A DNA stretch of 64,000 bases from a virus (Duplodnaviria; Caudoviricetes), in the IMG/VR virus record IMGVR_UViG_3300033979_000663, positions 13,749 to 77,748 of that record; one strand, given 5' to 3'. Made by a program: the position numbers and the translations under genes. Position 1 is the first letter of the stretch. Each line of letters starts with the position of its first letter. Below the pieces are notes generated by a model. That model was not told the DNA's origin. It saw only the letters and a list, made by a program, of their open reading frames with translations, and did not search any database. Below are positions 37,627 through 51,524 of the stretch, piece by piece.

Positions 37627-37737
37627 AGATTATTGAATCGAAGAGCAATAATCTTAAATCAAAAGGCAGGATGCGTCCTGAAGAAACTAACATCCTGCCT
37701 CAAGTTCATTACAAATAAACTTAATGGAGATCGTACC

Positions 37738-39510
37738 ATGTCTTTAACAGCAACCCGGTTCAGTCGCGCTTTTTCATCCTCCGAATATTCTGCCGTCCTC
37801 TCTTTAGAGGAAGCCCTCTTTGAAGAGGGCTATGAATGGGACGGACGAGACTTGATCCAGTTGGATGATCAAGGTTCACGTCCCGCGACCGATGGAGATT
37901 TATCTTATCTCCGCGAACTGTTCTGGCACGAAGGTGTCAGAGGACAGGATTTAAAGGAAGCGATCGCGTCTTTGAACTTAACCAAAGGAGGACAAAGAAT
38001 CCTCCATGAAGCAGTCCGCGACTACAACGGGAAACCGTTGACGGATTACGTTGCCAAGTACCACTTCAGGAAGAAGTTGGTGTTATGGCAAGCCAACGAT
38101 GCCAACAACGATGATTTCAGAGTTTCGCAGCCCTTGATAAACTGCGGTTATTGGCATGACGGCACAGAATTTAAGGATGAGGCTGATACTCTTTGGAACT
38201 ATGGTATCCATTGGATAGGGGATGCTGTTAAAGTCTATGAACTAATCCCCCATGTATGGACAAAAGGACGTAGCTTAAATAGCCCATACCAAGTGAACCT
38301 TGACCAGGTCGTCCTAGTGGCGACAAATCCGAACTATCGCAACTTGCCCTTATGGGCAAAGATTCAAGTTATCAGAGGAAACCATGCCTCATCCCGTCCT
38401 GGGGATGTTTGGCGCACTTTAATGCCAGCATTAAAAGCTTGGAAGTGGGACAACTCCATCCCCAAAAGATTCGCTAAACGACTCGGTGAAATGTCTCCCA
38501 AGTATCGTGCTTTGGGCGCGATCGCGTGGTCAATGTGTGATTCCAATAAATCCGATTTCTGGAATAAATTCCAGGAATTAAGCCTTCATCCCACGAAGGC
38601 TATCAGTCCCCTACTGTGGGGAGATTTTTCTGTTTACCAACGAAATAGATCCTTAGAAATTTTGTGGGGATTACCCCACAAACACCTCGATACAAACGAC
38701 GGCATGGTTCAGTTGTCGCATTATTACGACGACTGGCATAAGTACGAAATAATAGCGAAGTACGGCGGCGGTTCTGCTGCCGTATGCCGCACCTTGTTTG
38801 GTTGTGGCGGCAAACAGGTTCAACGCCTGTTCCAATCTTCATCCTTCAACCAGAGGAAATGGGCGATCGCGATCGCTTACGGTAAAGAGGATTTAGTTCA
38901 AAAGTATCTCGCCTCTGATTGTGTCCCCTATCAAGAGGACGCAGTTAATTTTCTCAAGTTCTTGGGCGAAAAGCCCGCACTGAGAATGGCGCAAACAACC
39001 ACAATGACCCTGCGTGGTAAATCGCAGGATGTCACCGGTGATTATATCCGTGACACTGGCTATCTTTTCAACCAGTTACAAAACAGTGGTGTGTCCCCCG
39101 ATTTGGGGCGCGTCCGCTGCTGGTTTAGCACTCACGAACTCCTTGCTAAGGAGTATGTCAAAATCCTTCCCGACTTCGAGCTTCGGGTTAATCCCGACTT
39201 CGCCCCCTTAGATGGGTTGTCTAGCTTAGATATGTCCTGGGAAATCGAGATTCCCAAGCACCAACACCAGTTAAAACGTTACGGTGAGATCCTATCTCAC
39301 TGTGTTGGCGGCTATGGTGCTGCCGTCAACCAAGGAAGTAGCGTAATTGTTGCGGTCTATTTCCAAGGTGTCCTCAAGTATACTCTTGAGTTCGTAAAAG
39401 GCGATCGCGCCTACCGCTGCAATCAGTTTTACGGATTCAGGAACTCTCACCCTAGTGAGAGCGATCGCTCCGTAGTCCTGAATATGTTCCAGCAAGCCAA
39501 GCTCATCTGA
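37738..39510 (+). CDS. PcfJ-domain protein
   Basis: C-terminal LKRYGEILSHCVGGY...G.SVIV...TLE...QFYGFRN.HP; GGAG RBS. Confidence 0.75.
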   Translation: MSLTATRFSRAFSSSEYSAVLSLEEALFEEGYEWDGRDLIQLDDQGSRPATDGDLSYLRELFWHEGVRGQDLKEAIASLNLTKGGQRILHEAVRDYNGKPLTDYVAKYHFRKKLVLWQANDANNDDFRVSQPLINCGYWHDGTEFKDEADTLWNYGIHWIGDAVKVYELIPHVWTKGRSLNSPYQVNLDQVVLVATNPNYRNLPLWAKIQVIRGNHASSRPGDVWRTLMPALKAWKWDNSIPKRFAKRLGEMSPKYRALGAIAWSMCDSNKSDFWNKFQELSLHPTKAISPLLWGDFSVYQRNRSLEILWGLPHKHLDTNDGMVQLSHYYDDWHKYEIIAKYGGGSAAVCRTLFGCGGKQVQRLFQSSSFNQRKWAIAIAYGKEDLVQKYLASDCVPYQEDAVNFLKFLGEKPALRMAQTTTMTLRGKSQDVTGDYIRDTGYLFNQLQNSGVSPDLGRVRCWFSTHELLAKEYVKILPDFELRVNPDFAPLDGLSSLDMSWEIEIPKHQHQLKRYGEILSHCVGGYGAAVNQGSSVIVAVYFQGVLKYTLEFVKGDRAYRCNQFYGFRNSHPSESDRSVVLNMFQQAKLI

Positions 39511-39572
39511 GCCGCCTGATGAGGGGAGATGGTAACTCCCCGAAACACTCCCTTGAGTGTAGCGGTAAACCA
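39511..39572 (+). ncRNA. Hammerhead ribozyme, type I (HHR1); predicted cleavage after GUA at 39561
   Basis: Stem I GCCGC/GCGGT; CTGATGA; stem II GGGGAG/CTCCCC; GAAA; stem III CACTC/GAGTG. Loop II TGGT can pair with downstream ACCA. Confidence 0.92.
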
Positions 39573-39595
39573 CTTTCACACCGCAGGAGTTAATT

Positions 39596-39643
39596 ATGTT
39601 TGAGATTTTAACTGCTTGGTTAGTTCGGAAATTTAAGAGATAA
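39596..39643 (+). CDS. 15-aa amphipathic peptide MFEILTAWLVRKFKR
   Basis: AGGAG RBS 6 nt before the ATG, just 3' of HHR1. Confidence 0.35.
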   Translation: MFEILTAWLVRKFKR

Positions 39644-39719
39644 AAATTTTATATCAGAAGTGATTGACCAGTGCTTTCACTTCTGATATAAATAGATTTT
39701 AAAACAAGGAGTAATTCAA

Positions 39720-40064
39720 ATGGAAAATATATCTTCTGTAGAGTTGGGTAAAATCTTACCCTACTATCTACCTGTATCAGAGAAAAGGAAGATGTACGGG
39801 GATGGTGGGAATATCCCTGTTCATCAATGGGTAGAATCTGTCCACGAAGATAGCCTGAAAGGGCAATACGTGGATTTAAATACTGTAAAGAAAGGCAGAT
39901 ATCGCGGCAGTTTTGCTGCTGGTTATCAGTATGTTGTAACAATCCCCAATCATGGGTTTTACAAAGAAAGGTCATTGCCACATCTTGGAGGGCGTGCTTT
40001 CCATAACTGGATACTAGAACCCAAATACATAATAGGATTCTGTCACACAGAATCCTGGATTTAG
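39720..40064 (+). CDS. Hypothetical protein between hammerheads
   Basis: AAGGAG RBS; 114 aa. Confidence 0.65.
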   Translation: MENISSVELGKILPYYLPVSEKRKMYGDGGNIPVHQWVESVHEDSLKGQYVDLNTVKKGRYRGSFAAGYQYVVTIPNHGFYKERSLPHLGGRAFHNWILEPKYIIGFCHTESWI

Positions 40065-40078
40065 TGGAAATTATGCGA

Positions 40079-40115
40079 TCCGACCTGAGTACGTCGTTAA
40101 ACTGCTTCTGTGTAC
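40079..40115 (+). ncRNA. Small pseudoknot-like motif, copy 1
   Basis: CGAC-CTGAGTAC-GTCG-TTAAAC-TGCTT; identical 37 bp at 40566-40602. Confidence 0.55.
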
Positions 40116-40140
40116 TGGAGAATATTTATCAAAAAACTAA

Positions 40141-40202
40141 TCCGCCTGATGAGTCCGAGTGGTTCTCGGACGAAACACTCTCTTGAGTGTCGCGGGAAAC
40201 CG
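40141..40202 (+). ncRNA. Hammerhead ribozyme, type I (HHR2); predicted cleavage after GUC at 40191
   Basis: TCCGC CTGATGA GTCCGAG TGGTT CTCGGAC GAAA CACTC TCTT GAGTG TC GCGGG, then AAACCG. Confidence 0.93.
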
Positions 40203-40344
40203 CACATCATTCCTCTAAATGATGTTTGCTGATTAGCTTAGGTCTCATCAACCTAAGCTTTCTTCGGGGTGTAGCCGAAAGGGTAAGCAAGTGAGTAAAG
40301 TAATTGAGAAGATTCTAGCTATTGGAGAATAATCAAAAAACTAA

Positions 40345-40406
40345 TCCGCCTGATGAGTCCGAGTGGTTCTCGGACGAAACACTCTCTTGAGTGTCGCGGG
40401 AAACCG
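40345..40406 (+). ncRNA. Hammerhead ribozyme, type I (HHR3); predicted cleavage after GUC at 40395
   Basis: Identical to HHR2. Confidence 0.93.
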
Positions 40407-40468
40407 CACATCATTCCTCTAAATGATGTTTGCTGATTAGCTTAGGTCTCATCAACCTAAGCTTTCTT

Positions 40469-40561
40469 CGGGGTGTAGCCGAATTGGAACAGGCGTAATT
40501 CCCAGTAAACATGAACGATGTGGTGATTCTATCCATGTGGGTTCGAGTCCCGTCACCCCGA
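40469..40561 (+). tRNA. tRNA-like RNA / pseudo-tRNA with non-canonical anticodon arm
   Basis: Acceptor CGGGGTG/CACCCCG; TA; D-arm GCC-GAATTGGAACA-GGC; T-arm GTGGG-TTCGAGT-CCCGT. No assignable anticodon. Confidence 0.65.
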
Positions 40562-40565
40562 CCTG

Positions 40566-40602
40566 TCCGACCTGAGTACGTCGTTAAACTGCTTCTGTGT
40601 AC
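40566..40602 (+). ncRNA. Small pseudoknot-like motif, copy 2
   Basis: Identical to 40079-40115, 4 nt after the tRNA-like element. Confidence 0.55.
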
Positions 40603-40713
40603 GTTAATTGGTTGCCTTTATCTTTGGCAACCTTTTCTTCAAAGTCGAAATAGAAGCAATATCTATCTGCATGGGATAGCTACCCATGTACTGATGATGA
40701 CAAGCTAAGAAAA

Positions 40714-50285: not shown

Positions 50286-51524
50286 ATGGGGTCGGACAAT
50301 TTCATTGATATTGACTCTCGCCCTGACCTTGAGTGGGCTAAACGTCATAAAGGGGGTATCTACACTTTCCATCGAGGTCAACTGGGTATCGCATTCAACG
50401 TTCCCCGCAACTTGTGGTGGCAAATTCCCAAAGAATGCTATTTGGGGAGTATTGATGATATCCCTCGTTACGTGGAGATTCACGAAGAGGGTTATCTTCC
50501 CTGCGTGTGGCGTGATGGGGAACACCGATTCGTCTATGCTAACCAGTTCTTTCCGGTGTATGCACCGGACAACCAACTGGTTGTTATGGACAAGTTATTA
50601 CGGATTGCCTCTATTACCGAGCGATTAATAGAGGCAGAATCCACAGAACAGGACGACACCCATTGCACCTATCTCCGTAATGGGTTAAACGAGTTGTATT
50701 CCGACTTCGTGACCAATTACGGTGCTATCCGCAACTATCAAGTTTACTGGGACAATGACCTCTGGTGTGACATGAGGTTAGAGACGTATATCACTAACCT
50801 AGTTGATGGGTACGGCAAACTTGCCGACATCTTCACCAAAAGAACCAAGTTCCCACCTTCTGACCCCGTTGGGCAACAGTTCTTTCAAGATTCAATTCCT
50901 GACAGAGTTGAGTCTGCATTGTCTTGGTGTATGGCTTGGTTGGGTAAAGTTGATGTTCCTCAAATAGCAGAAAAAGCAGGTGTTGATGAGGCGATCGCTC
51001 TGGAAATCCTGCTAGAAAATGAACTGGTTTACCGAGTTCCTGAAGTTGTTGAGCCTCAGTGGTGGGAAGTATTAGGGGTTGATAAAGATATTGACTCTGA
51101 TTACCAACTCACGACTGCATGGAAGGAACAGCGCGAGGATGATATTACCTTTGCACTGACTCTCGATGAGGCATACAAGAAAGCCTTGCCGATAGTTACC
51201 TCCCGGTTGCCTTATCCCGACTGGGAGGAAACAGAGGAGGTGGTTATCCTGCATCATGCAGGTGGTACTTATACCTATCAAAAAGTACCCTGCAAGTCCG
51301 CTCACGGGTACAGCATTGGCACTGTACCCAAAGACTTCAAAGAAAGGTCAAAAACGGAAACACCTGTGTTCCTGATGAAAGAGGACATAATCGGGGTTTT
51401 CGCCAACGAAACCAAGGCTATTCGATGCCTGATTGAATTATCTAGGCATCCAAAGGCATACATCCACTCTATTGATATGCAAGTCATTATCAAGTTCTAT
51501 GGCTTGTCTGCACACTGGCATTAA
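50286..51524 (+). CDS. Middle segment of a DarB-like protein with a degenerate J-domain-like tail
   Basis: LNELYSDFVTNYG...KLADIFTKRT...SAL...GKVD..IAE; later WWEVLGV...AYKKA without HPD. Confidence 0.65.
   Translation: MGSDNFIDIDSRPDLEWAKRHKGGIYTFHRGQLGIAFNVPRNLWWQIPKECYLGSIDDIPRYVEIHEEGYLPCVWRDGEHRFVYANQFFPVYAPDNQLVVMDKLLRIASITERLIEAESTEQDDTHCTYLRNGLNELYSDFVTNYGAIRNYQVYWDNDLWCDMRLETYITNLVDGYGKLADIFTKRTKFPPSDPVGQQFFQDSIPDRVESALSWCMAWLGKVDVPQIAEKAGVDEAIALEILLENELVYRVPEVVEPQWWEVLGVDKDIDSDYQLTTAWKEQREDDITFALTLDEAYKKALPIVTSRLPYPDWEETEEVVILHHAGGTYTYQKVPCKSAHGYSIGTVPKDFKERSKTETPVFLMKEDIIGVFANETKAIRCLIELSRHPKAYIHSIDMQVIIKFYGLSAHWH

What the first reader, a model, noticed from the sequence alone, without database searches (positions are those of the whole stretch)
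39511..40602. Cluster of three hammerhead ribozymes that would cut the early transcript into ligatable units
Seen: three complete type I hammerheads within 0.9 kb on the sense strand. HHR1 begins at the base after the PcfJ stop codon. HHR1 and HHR2 differ by compensatory changes in stem II (GGGGAG/CTCCCC vs GTCCGAG/CTCGGAC) and keep a loop II to 3' flank pairing (TGGT/ACCA; GGTT/AACC), which argues for selection on the fold. Established: hammerheads leave 5'-OH and 2',3'-cyclic phosphate ends that RtcB-type ligases can join. Inference: cleavage at 39561, 40191 and 40395 releases a 630-nt RNA carrying the peptide and 114-aa ORFs, a 204-nt structured non-coding monomer, and a precursor of the tRNA-like RNA. 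The first two could circularise, as retrozyme RNAs do.
Basis: partly seen in the sequence, partly recalled or inferred. Interest (0 to 1): 0.9.

Follow-up and report, generated by a model that had tools for sequence, protein, structure and literature searches.

The report
Three hammerhead ribozymes in a cyanophage
Three self-cutting RNA motifs of a well-known kind lie between genes of a lake cyanobacterial virus, where they most likely cut a long transcript into separate pieces; such clusters are already known from other phages.

Summary
Three complete type I hammerhead (HHR) motifs lie on the + strand, with predicted cuts after 39561, 40191 and 40395. They stay below Rfam's threshold (20.3 bits against 34; HHR1 not listed). 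The comparative evidence is nevertheless strong. HHR1 is 93% identical to its counterparts in Aphanizomenon phage CL131 and one IMG/VR contig, while the flanking DNA is 52-76% identical. Of 27 distinct IMG/VR hits to the core plus stem III, 25 have at least 5 contiguous stem I pairs and 22 have at least 4 stem II pairs. Related phage records carry 2 to 8 such HHRs between genes. The tandem is real and polymorphic: one run shows the unit at twice the flank depth, and another holds a single-copy form. HHR clusters that cut phage polycistronic RNA were described and tested in 2011 (PMC3088659), so this is a new member of a known kind. Circular RNA is unsupported, and each 3' product can fold its 5' end into a hairpin, which argues against religation. 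The HHR2/HHR3/tRNA-like module is flanked by two copies of a widespread phage RNA motif absent from Rfam.

The parts
37633..39510 (+). 625-aa ORF with a C-terminal PcfJ-like domain; its stop codon TGA is at 39508-39510
   Evidence: ORF list. Pfam PF14284 PcfJ, E 4.8e-7, 30.1 bits against a cut-off of 25. It is 76% identical to the ORF in L005, and the region matches the end of CL131 gp131.
39511..39572 (+). HHR1, a type I hammerhead with a predicted cut after A39561. Includes stem I 3' strand 39562-39566 and pseudoknot partner ACCA 39569-39572.
   Evidence: Sequence; core pattern. The 56-nt piece has a three-way-junction MFE fold with z -3.4. HHR1 plus flank is 93% identical to CL131 and L005, against 64-76% and 52-54% in the flanks.
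39562..39584 (+). Hairpin GCGGU...ACCGC that the 3' product of HHR1 can form at its 5' end. It is followed by AGGAG at 39585-39589.
   Evidence: Fold of 39562-39600: -6.5 kcal/mol, 67% of the ensemble. The same arrangement is present in L005.
39596..39643 (+). 15-aa hydrophobic peptide ORF (MFEILTAWLVRKFKR)
   Evidence: Sequence. Longer 26-aa versions follow the HHR1 counterpart in CL131 and L005.
39648..39692 (+). Perfect 16-bp inverted repeat (hairpin) after the peptide ORF
   Evidence: the repeat finder I1. Several related contigs diverge just behind it, at 39698 (tables 5 and 7).
39720..40064 (+). 114-aa ORF with no Pfam family
40079..40115 (+). Left copy of the 37-nt direct repeat. It holds the motif YGACC-N7-GUCGUUAAACUGC.
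   Evidence: the repeat finder D3; motif family.
40141..40202 (+). HHR2, a type I hammerhead with a predicted cut after C40191 and pseudoknot partner AACCG at 40198-40202
   Evidence: MFE fold is a three-way junction with z -3.0.
40128..40279 (+). First copy of the 152-nt exact repeat: HHR2, three hairpins and the first 15 nt of the tRNA-like gene
   Evidence: Unit depth is twice the flank depth in run X2.
40280..40331 (+). Unique 52-nt segment between the two repeat copies. It holds a 13-codon GTG mini-ORF, and a 16-mer shared with a gene start in L081.
40332..40483 (+). Second copy of the 152-nt repeat: HHR3 (40345-40406, cut after C40395), three hairpins and the 5' part of the tRNA-like gene
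40469..40561 (+). tRNA-like gene. Acceptor, D and T arms are intact, but there is no 7-nt anticodon loop.
   Evidence: Rfam tRNA, 32.9 bits against a cut-off of 29. ARAGORN default finds nothing. With introns allowed it calls tRNA-His(gtg) with a 17-nt insert.
40566..40602 (+). Right copy of the 37-nt direct repeat, 4 nt after the tRNA-like 3' end
40610..40639 (+). Hairpin GGUUGCC/GGCAACC followed by UUUUCUU; terminator-like
   Evidence: Read from the sequence. Not listed by the scan, whose loop limit is 8 while this loop has 9 nt.

Best explanation
The window is the last 64 kb of a 77.7-kb record of a CL131-like cyanophage from lake metagenomes. Three pseudoknot-type, type I hammerhead ribozymes lie in the + strand block of replication-type genes. 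As the block is transcribed, each most likely folds and cuts itself. This leaves an upstream piece that ends in the compact ribozyme with a 2',3'-cyclic phosphate. The downstream piece starts with a 5'-OH, and its first bases then fold into a local hairpin (GCGGU...ACCGC after HHR1; GCGG-GAAA-CCGC after HHR2 and HHR3).

HHR1 is the conserved member. It separates the pcfJ-like message from a small-peptide message that carries its own Shine-Dalgarno site 24 nt after the cut. HHR2 and HHR3 are identical paralogues inside a variable cassette. They would free a roughly 245-nt structured RNA made of three hairpins, a tRNA-like element, a conserved motif and a terminator-like hairpin. In genomes with the extra 207-bp unit they would also free a 204-nt by-product.

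Shown: the motifs, their conservation, the stem covariation in relatives, the reality and polymorphism of the tandem, and the recurrence of such series in related phages. Inferred: cleavage itself, its timing, the hairpin lock, and the effect on RNA stability and translation.
For: All core nucleotides and all three stems are present. The core pattern is far above chance.

HHR1 plus flank is 93% identical to CL131 and to L005. The coding DNA before it is 64-76% identical and the DNA after it 52-54%.

Of 27 distinct IMG/VR and window hits to a pattern fixing only the core and stem III, 25 have at least 5 contiguous stem I pairs and 22 have at least 4 stem II pairs. Shuffled controls reach 4 pairs in 1.6% and 3.0% of trials.

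A structure-aware scan found 33 distinct HHRs in the window and loci L004-L037. Eight of them lie within 5.5 kb of one complete 92.7-kb phage record and have fully compensated stem III variants. The record-wide pattern search listed 8 convincing HHRs in that same record, 5 in a second record, 4 in a third, and 2 in CL131.

In these relatives the HHR lies just after a stop codon and a few tens of nt before a Shine-Dalgarno site and a start codon.

The isolated 56-nt HHR1 and HHR2 fold as three-way junctions, with z -3.4 and -3.0.

Published precedent: clustered HHRs flank genes in prophages, cleave in vitro in about 2-kb transcripts, and one triple cluster cleaves in E. coli; a pseudoknot between stems I and II is common (PMC3088659, passages read).
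Against: There is no cleavage assay and no RNA end mapping.

Rfam scores are below threshold, and HHR1 is not listed at all.

One contig from an RNA library (run X20, depth 5.35) of a relative bridges the HHR1 cut site. So uncut RNA, or DNA carried over into that library, exists.

In CL131 the HHR1 counterpart has a C.A mismatch at the third stem I pair.

With its 3' flank included, the MFE fold of HHR2 puts the stem I 3' strand into the alternative hairpin. Activity would therefore depend on folding during transcription.

My generic pseudoknot test is weak: mean best pairing is 3.63, against 3.17 for shuffled flanks.

HHR2 and HHR3 have no counterpart elsewhere in IMG/VR, the genome collection or JGI metagenome contigs. 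The IMG/VR scan used the fixed stem III pattern, and near-identical records may have been hidden.
Confidence: 0.7

Rival explanations
1. HHR-bounded RNA circles. The 204-nt unit (40192-40395) and the 630-nt piece (39562-40191) are joined end to end by the reverse hammerhead reaction or by a host RtcB-type ligase. They would act as retrozyme- or viroid-like circular RNAs, and the polymorphic 207-bp unit would be a trace of their mobility.
For: All three HHRs share nearly the same stem I (CCGC/GCGG) and a compatible pseudoknot partner. The two ends of any piece could therefore rebuild a nicked hammerhead (read). The extra unit is present in some populations and absent in another. The spacing of the repeat equals the HHR-to-HHR distance. 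Paralogous HHRs within other phage records also share stem I while stem III varies.
Against: There are only two copies, not an array. The single-copy form joins at a 9-nt shared word (TGGAGAATA), not at the cleavage site. The 52 nt between the copies are unrelated to the tRNA-like remainder and look like a remnant of a gene start. That pattern fits DNA recombination. The 5' ends of the products fold into hairpins. No RtcB was found in the record (the record is 72% complete and the host was not examined). Perreault et al. 2011 could not detect circles or spliced products from phage clusters. Shared stem I is also what recent duplication of paralogues would give.
Confidence: 0.07
2. A device for maturing a tRNA-like RNA. 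The purpose of HHR2 and HHR3 is to make the 5' end of a precursor of the tRNA-like RNA independent of upstream transcription. This would be the 5'-side counterpart of the HDV-like theta ribozymes that trim the 3' ends of phage tRNAs.
For: HHR3 lies 73 nt upstream of a tRNA-like gene that passes Rfam's tRNA threshold. The cassette is bounded by a terminator-like hairpin. Ribozymes beside phage tRNAs have precedent (PMC10879173, abstract and passages).
Against: The cut is 73 nt from the tRNA-like 5' end, so RNase P would still be needed. The tRNA-like element lacks an anticodon loop and has no relative in IMG/VR; one 21-mer hit was an ordinary tRNA in an unrelated contig. ARAGORN found no tRNA beside an HHR in any of the 12 HHR-bearing loci scanned; the one tRNA found, in L004, lies 3.5 kb away on the other strand. 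The theta paper does not mention hammerheads (0 occurrences).
Confidence: 0.15
3. A neutral mosaic cassette. HHR1 is functional. The HHR2/HHR3/tRNA-like segment is a recently acquired, decaying piece (a tRNA pseudogene plus a copied ribozyme) with no role of its own.
For: A related contig lacks the whole segment: 107 other letters lie between 39698 and 40566. The segment is flanked by identical 37-nt repeats. The copy number is polymorphic. The tRNA-like anticodon arm is degenerate.
Against: HHR2 keeps every core base and all three stems, with a stem II that is fully compensated relative to HHR1. The 204-nt unit folds more stably than shuffles (z -3.0).
Confidence: 0.15
4. Chance or dead motifs with no self-cleavage.
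For: Rfam scores are below threshold. An RNA-library contig bridges the HHR1 site.
Against: Expected chance matches are 0.03 against 4 seen. HHR1 is an island of conservation. Stem covariation runs across the family.
Confidence: 0.03

Closest known systems
Clustered hammerhead ribozymes in prophage and phage transcripts (Perreault et al. 2011, PMC3088659; passages read)
   Same: Several HHRs lie close together on one strand and flank single genes or short gene blocks. A pseudoknot between the stem I and stem II regions is present. The proposed role is cutting long phage transcripts into gene-length RNAs. Triple arrangements were shown to cleave in vitro, and one cleaves in E. coli.
   Different: The host group here is a CL131-like cyanophage from lakes. 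A full-text search for 'hammerhead' with 'cyanophage' gave 8 papers, none about this by title or abstract. Two of the three copies are identical and lie in a copy-number-polymorphic unit that ends inside a tRNA-like gene. The cassette is flanked by a further conserved RNA motif.
HHphage of haloviruses HF1 and HF2 (described in the same paper)
   Same: An HHR lies a few nt upstream of the start codon of an early gene. A mapped transcript 5' end lies within three nt of the cut.
   Different: That one is a variant-core HHR in an archaeal virus and is a single copy.
Theta (minimal HDV-like) ribozymes beside phage tRNAs (PMC10879173; abstract and passages)
   Same: A small self-cleaving ribozyme is encoded next to a phage tRNA-type gene and is proposed to replace a host RNase step.
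   Different: Theta ribozymes cut exactly at the tRNA 3' end, occur mainly in gut phages and have the HDV fold. Here a hammerhead lies 73 nt upstream of a tRNA-like element that has no anticodon loop.
Retrozymes and satellite or viroid-like tandem repeats with hammerheads (recalled; PMC7761336 seen only as a search listing)
   Same: A repeat unit is bounded by identical HHR cut sites, so that a unit-length RNA has ends able to rebuild the ribozyme.
   Different: There are only two copies, inside a dsDNA phage operon. The repeat covers 152 of the 204 nt. No circle has been shown, and no primer-binding site or polypurine tract was looked for.

Membership tests
Hammerhead ribozyme, type I | Catalytic core C3 U4 G5 A6 N7 G8 A9 ... 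G12 A13 A14 | tested here: met
   CUGAUGA and GAAA are present in all three. The pattern is far above chance.
Hammerhead ribozyme, type I | Three helices around the core, with stems II and III closed by loops and stem I open (type I) | tested here: met
   Stem I has 5 pairs, stem II 6 or 7 pairs, and stem III 5 pairs plus A15.1-U16.1. The MFE of the 56-nt pieces gives exactly this fold.
Hammerhead ribozyme, type I | Cleavage triplet N-U-H with an A15.1-U16.1 pair | tested here: met
   GUA in HHR1 and GUC in HHR2 and HHR3. Among 27 relatives H17 is C in 20 and A in 7.
Hammerhead ribozyme, type I | Tertiary contact between the stem I and stem II regions | tested here: inconclusive
   Loop II pairs with the 3' flank, and the pairing differs between subfamilies: UGGU/ACCA, UGGUU/AACCG, UGGC/GCCG, UAGUUA/UAACUA. 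My generic test against shuffled flanks is weak: 18 of 27 reach 4 pairs, against 41% of controls.
Hammerhead ribozyme, type I | Score at or above Rfam's gathering cut-off for a hammerhead model | tested here: not met
   RF00163 gives 20.3 bits against 34 for HHR2 and HHR3. HHR1 is not listed at E up to 10. RF03152 gives 19.5 and 17.8 bits against 56.3. The shortfall comes with long loop inserts in stems II and III in the printed alignment.
Hammerhead ribozyme, type I | Mg-dependent self-cleavage giving 5'-OH and 2',3'-cyclic phosphate ends | not testable with these tools
   No raw RNA reads were on hand. The one RNA-library run is contigs of a relative.
tRNA | Cloverleaf with a 7-nt anticodon loop | tested here: not met
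   Acceptor (7 pairs), D and T arms are present, and Rfam gives 32.9 bits against 29. ARAGORN default finds none. It calls a tRNA only with a 17-nt insert in the anticodon loop or at a lowered threshold. The MFE shows no anticodon hairpin.
Retrozyme or viroid-like circular RNA | Unit-length RNA bounded by ribozyme cuts and found as a circle | not testable with these tools
   The geometry allows it, but no RNA data exist. Hairpin capture of the 5' ends and the 2011 negative result speak against it.
Retrozyme or viroid-like circular RNA | Many tandem or dispersed copies | tested here: not met
   There are two copies in this record and none elsewhere in IMG/VR by the core plus stem III pattern.
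HDV-like (theta) ribozyme, considered for the 37-nt repeat | P1 helix formed with a 5' strand that starts at the cleavage site | tested here: not met
   By eye I found no GGGUCG-type partner upstream of CGACCU in the window copies or in L039. Rfam lists no family overlapping the repeat at E up to 10.

The most novel reading that the evidence does not exclude
Within each of these phages the paralogous hammerheads keep the same stem I and pseudoknot partner while stem III drifts. That would let the two ends of any inter-ribozyme piece rebuild a ribozyme. On this reading the 204-nt unit, and perhaps the 630-nt coding piece, are made as circular RNAs inside the infected cyanobacterium. The 207-bp unit that is present in some lake populations and absent in another would then be a trace of an RNA-level element in a DNA phage.
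Probability: 0.07. Interest if true: 0.85.

Novelty: new member of a known kind. Interest (0 to 1): 0.45.

Why it matters
If the three ribozymes are active, CL131-like cyanophages divide their replication-gene transcripts without host RNases. That affects which messages persist during infection of bloom-forming Aphanizomenon-type hosts. CL131 is a cultured phage that carries the HHR1 counterpart and a second hammerhead. The idea can therefore be tested directly there.

The locus also gives a natural experiment: populations with one or two copies of an HHR-bounded unit.

The more unusual leads lie beside the finding. A short RNA motif with a covarying stem is spread through at least 114 IMG/VR stretches and is absent from Rfam. 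In some phages that motif precedes elements that resemble the eukaryotic lariat-capping ribozyme.

Tried and rejected
**Rfam.** At gathering score on the whole window Rfam found only the tRNA-like gene.

**Relatives.** The pcfJ-like protein found 2 IMG/VR loci and none in the genome collection. Two exact-pattern scans aimed at the HHR2-to-tRNA-like module and at the tRNA-like gene found nothing in JGI metagenome contigs or in the genome collection. Near-identical records may be hidden by the tool, so these blanks prove little.

**End-healing and ligase genes.** RtcB (PF01139) and a CL131-type polynucleotide kinase/phosphatase were not found in the 72%-complete record. The host genome was not examined.

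**RNA evidence.** The only RNA-library run (X20) is kept as contigs, covers 7 of 30 bins and belongs to a relative that lacks 39699-40565. It cannot show ends or levels. Its contig starts at 39508, which I do not read as an RNA end. Parts without cover in any run are not used.

**Promoters and terminators.** The scan gave fewer promoter-like sites than shuffles (4 against 7.5) and no terminator on the + strand between the ribozymes. A promoter-like site at 40304-40333 is not evidence.

**Identities rejected for the 37-nt repeat.**
- Pistol, hatchet, twister-sister and preQ1 riboswitch: no Rfam match overlapping the repeat at E up to 10.
- HDV-like ribozyme: no P1 partner by eye.
- Sequencing adaptor: the repeat lies inside contigs of independent runs.
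- Sigma-70 promoter: the spacing is wrong, by eye.
- Integron attC: only the GTTAAAC core fits.
- nut-like boxA: only a partial UGCUCUUU in some copies.

**Literature.** A full-text search for four spellings of the repeat's core found 0 papers. The searches 'lariat capping ribozyme/LCrz/GIR1' from 2018 (110 papers, top 30 listed) and 'lariat cap' + ribozyme + phage (6 papers) showed no report of such ribozymes in phages by title or abstract. Supplements were closed, so the hammerhead lists of PMC3088659 and the ribozyme tables of PMC10879173 were not checked for these loci.

Full report
**What the window is.** The genome search reports that the window is the last 64 kb of a 77,748-base IMG/VR virus record, estimated 72% complete. 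A blastn search against phage records found one match. Aphanizomenon phage vB_AphaS-CL131 (MG209611, 112.8 kb) matches window 39300-39610 at 75.7% identity. From about 36 kb to 57 kb the long ORFs run on the + strand. They include a PcfJ-like protein, a DUF2786/DUF7168 protein, an SNF2-type helicase and a portal protein. The region is therefore a phage gene block. 'Early' is only an inference from the replication-type genes.

**The observation.** All three hammerheads are present exactly as described. The core pattern occurs 4 times in the window against 0.03 expected. The fourth match, at 51372, has no stem II and lies inside an ORF. In the whole record the fuller pattern matches 3 times forward, 0 times in reverse and 0 times in the backwards control. 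Rfam does not call them. Hammerhead_1 reaches 20.3 bits (cut-off 34) on HHR2 and HHR3, and HHR1 is not listed. In the printed alignment the core and stems match. The loss of score comes with the 10-nt inserts in the loops of stems II and III.

**Are they real ribozymes?** Four lines of comparative evidence say yes.
- HHR1 has counterparts directly after the stop codon of the pcfJ-like gene in CL131 and in IMG/VR contig L005. The 74 nt of HHR1 plus flank are 93% identical in both. The last 300 nt of the gene are 64% and 76% identical, and the next 116 nt are 52% and 54%. The changes fall at N7, in loop III and in the flank. The exception is one C.A mismatch in stem I of CL131.
- An IMG/VR scan for the core plus the stem III of these ribozymes gave 31 stretches. 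Of 27 distinct hits with full flanks, 25 have at least 5 contiguous stem I pairs and 22 have at least 4 stem II pairs. Neither stem was part of the search. Shuffled controls reach 4 pairs in 1.6% and 3.0% of trials. The exceptions are CL131 (2 pairs) and L018 (0 pairs) for stem I, and five hits whose first stem II pair is not standard.
- A structure-aware scan found 33 distinct hammerheads in the window and loci L004-L037. One complete 92.7-kb record carries eight within 5.5 kb, with six different, fully compensated stem III sequences. By the looser pattern, other records carry 5, 4 and 2 (CL131) convincing copies.
- The isolated 56-nt pieces fold as the three-way junction (z -3.4 and -3.0).

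The loop II to 3'-flank pairing changes together between subfamilies (UGGU/ACCA, UGGUU/AACCG, UGGC/GCCG, UAGUUA/UAACUA). However, my generic test against shuffled flanks is weak (mean 3.63 against 3.17), so I rate that contact as likely, not shown.

**How it most likely works.** In the relatives each hammerhead lies just after a stop codon and shortly before a Shine-Dalgarno site and a start codon. After HHR1 the 3' product begins GCGGU...ACCGC, a hairpin at 39562-39584. AGGAG follows, and then the ATG at 39596 of a 15-aa hydrophobic peptide. Longer 26-aa versions of that peptide follow the counterpart in CL131 and L005. After HHR2 and HHR3 the product begins GCGG-GAAA-CCGC. With the flank included, the MFE fold puts the stem I 3' strand into that hairpin.

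I read this as cut-then-lock. The ribozyme folds as it is made and cuts, and then the new 5' end is captured. The cut is thereby made irreversible, and the downstream RNA gains a structured 5'-OH end. That such ends slow 5'-end-dependent decay is general knowledge of bacterial RNA decay and was not tested here.

This is the role that Perreault et al. proposed in 2011 for clustered prophage hammerheads. They showed cleavage of three tandem arrangements in vitro and of one in E. coli. They found pseudoknots in about 40% of hammerheads. They report that they could not detect spliced or circular products (PMC3088659, passages read).

**The tandem and the cassette.** The exact repeat is 152 nt (40128-40279 and 40332-40483). 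Weaker similarity extends upstream to TGGAGAATA (40116 and 40323). The 52 nt between the copies are unrelated to what follows the second copy. The structure is therefore not a simple duplication that later diverged.

Logan contigs of independent lake runs settle the artefact question.
- In X2 the 152-nt unit has depth 65.4. The flanks have 30.4 and 23.8, and the contig across the unique segment has 30.8.
- In X1 the figures are 106.5, 69.7/47.6 and 34.8, which suggests a mixture of forms.
- In X7 a 303-nt contig (depth 60.8, flanks 58.6 and 52) joins 40115 directly to 40323. This is a single-copy form that keeps the second copy's upstream variant.

The joint lies in a 9-nt shared word and not at a cleavage site. 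The unique segment also shares a 16-mer with a gene start in L081. I therefore favour DNA recombination between related phages over an RNA route.

The module 40116-40565 is flanked by identical 37-nt repeats. An RNA-library contig of a relative has 107 other letters in place of 39699-40565, so the cassette is variable.

The tRNA-like gene passes Rfam's tRNA cut-off (32.9 bits against 29) and has good acceptor, D and T arms. It has no anticodon loop, and its role is open.

**Circles.** The geometry allows them, because all three ribozymes share stem I and a compatible pseudoknot partner. Nothing else supports them. There is no RNA evidence and no RtcB in the incomplete record. There are only two copies, the products' 5' ends are captured in hairpins, and the published search was negative. 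I give this reading 7%.

**What I noticed beside the finding.** The 37-nt repeat holds the motif YGACC-N7-GUCGUUAAACUGC. An exact 22-mer occurs in 8 unrelated IMG/VR contigs. A pattern with the 7 loop positions left free hit 114 stretches, at which the scan stopped. In 99 distinct 37-mers the free positions form a stem with the bases after UGC. Pair 10-28 is standard in 91 of 99 (AU 64, GC 24). Pair 9-29 is standard in 77 of 99 (GC 46, AU 14, GU 11). Cells changed on both sides number 45 against 18.0 +/- 3.2 in shuffles, with 0 of 500 shuffles reaching that value, and slid controls are far lower. The many U.G pairs (42 of 99 at pair 12-26) fit a structure on this strand only. A second helix, YGAC/GUCG, would make an H-type pseudoknot, but it was fixed by the search pattern and could not be tested. 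Rfam has no match overlapping the motif.

The motif lies 4-9 nt upstream of tRNA genes in five loci. In seven loci it lies upstream of 180-330-nt elements that match Rfam's GIR1 lariat-capping ribozyme. Those matches score 23-55 bits (cut-off 100), with E-values from 7e-10 to 0.1 (7 of the 16 loci scanned). My literature searches found no report of such elements in phages. These are leads, not findings.

**Verdict.** This is a new member of a known kind, of moderate interest.

Noticed in passing
window 40079-40115 and 40566-40602; IMG/VR loci L023, L038-L045, L048, L051, L055, L058-L170: The 37-nt repeat carries the motif YGACC-N7-GUCGUUAAACUGC. It occurs in at least 114 IMG/VR stretches from phages of very different G+C content. 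A stem covaries around an 11-nt loop, and the motif may form an H-type pseudoknot. The copies I looked at are intergenic and often lie just after a stop codon. Some records have two copies or tandem copies (L040, L044, L133, L163, L164, L168). There is no Rfam match, and no paper holds the sequence. Function unknown.
   Followed up: partly
L099 1562-1753(-), L114 1192-1371(+), L094 2221-2433(+), L079 2282-2608(+), L060 1232-1482(-), L102 184-420(-), L091 392-668(-): Elements just downstream of that motif match Rfam GIR1 (the lariat-capping or branching ribozyme, known to me only from eukaryotic twin-ribozyme introns). Scores are 23-55 bits (cut-off 100) with E from 7e-10 to 0.1. Conserved blocks include AUGGGGUU, CCAAAACGG, UUCCGUGCUA, AGAGACUNCACGG and AUCCCAUACA. 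An ORF starts within a few tens of nt after the 3' block. I found no report of such ribozymes in phages.
   Followed up: partly
L068 531-629, L116 3489-3602, L166 8100-8214, L151 3818-3925, L048 3895-4090: The same motif lies 4-9 nt upstream of phage tRNA genes. In L048 it lies between two tRNAs of an array.
   Followed up: partly
L011 1341-6890 (IMG/VR record of 92,726 bases, 100% complete): Eight type I hammerheads lie within 5.5 kb on one strand. They have nearly constant stems I and II and six different, fully compensated stem III sequences.
   Followed up: partly
L004 4263-4337 (CL131 gp130); MG209611 105183-105227(-): The 24-codon ORF annotated as gp130 in CL131 lies on top of the HHR1 counterpart and is probably not a gene. 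CL131 has a second convincing hammerhead about 6.8 kb away on the same strand.
   Followed up: partly
window 40291-40332: A 13-codon GTG mini-ORF (MSKVIEKILAIGE) with an AAGGG upstream lies in the unique segment between the two repeat copies. Its first 16 nt match the start of a longer ORF in L081.
   Followed up: partly
window 39698: Four contigs of related phages in runs X1, X7 and X20 share the HHR1, peptide and hairpin region. Each diverges with a different sequence right behind the 16-bp hairpin, which suggests a recombination boundary (tables 5 and 7).
   Followed up: no
window 39350-39480: GCGATCGC (the HIP1 palindrome of cyanobacteria, recalled) occurs twice in the last 150 nt of the pcfJ-like gene, and again in CL131 and L005.
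   Followed up: no
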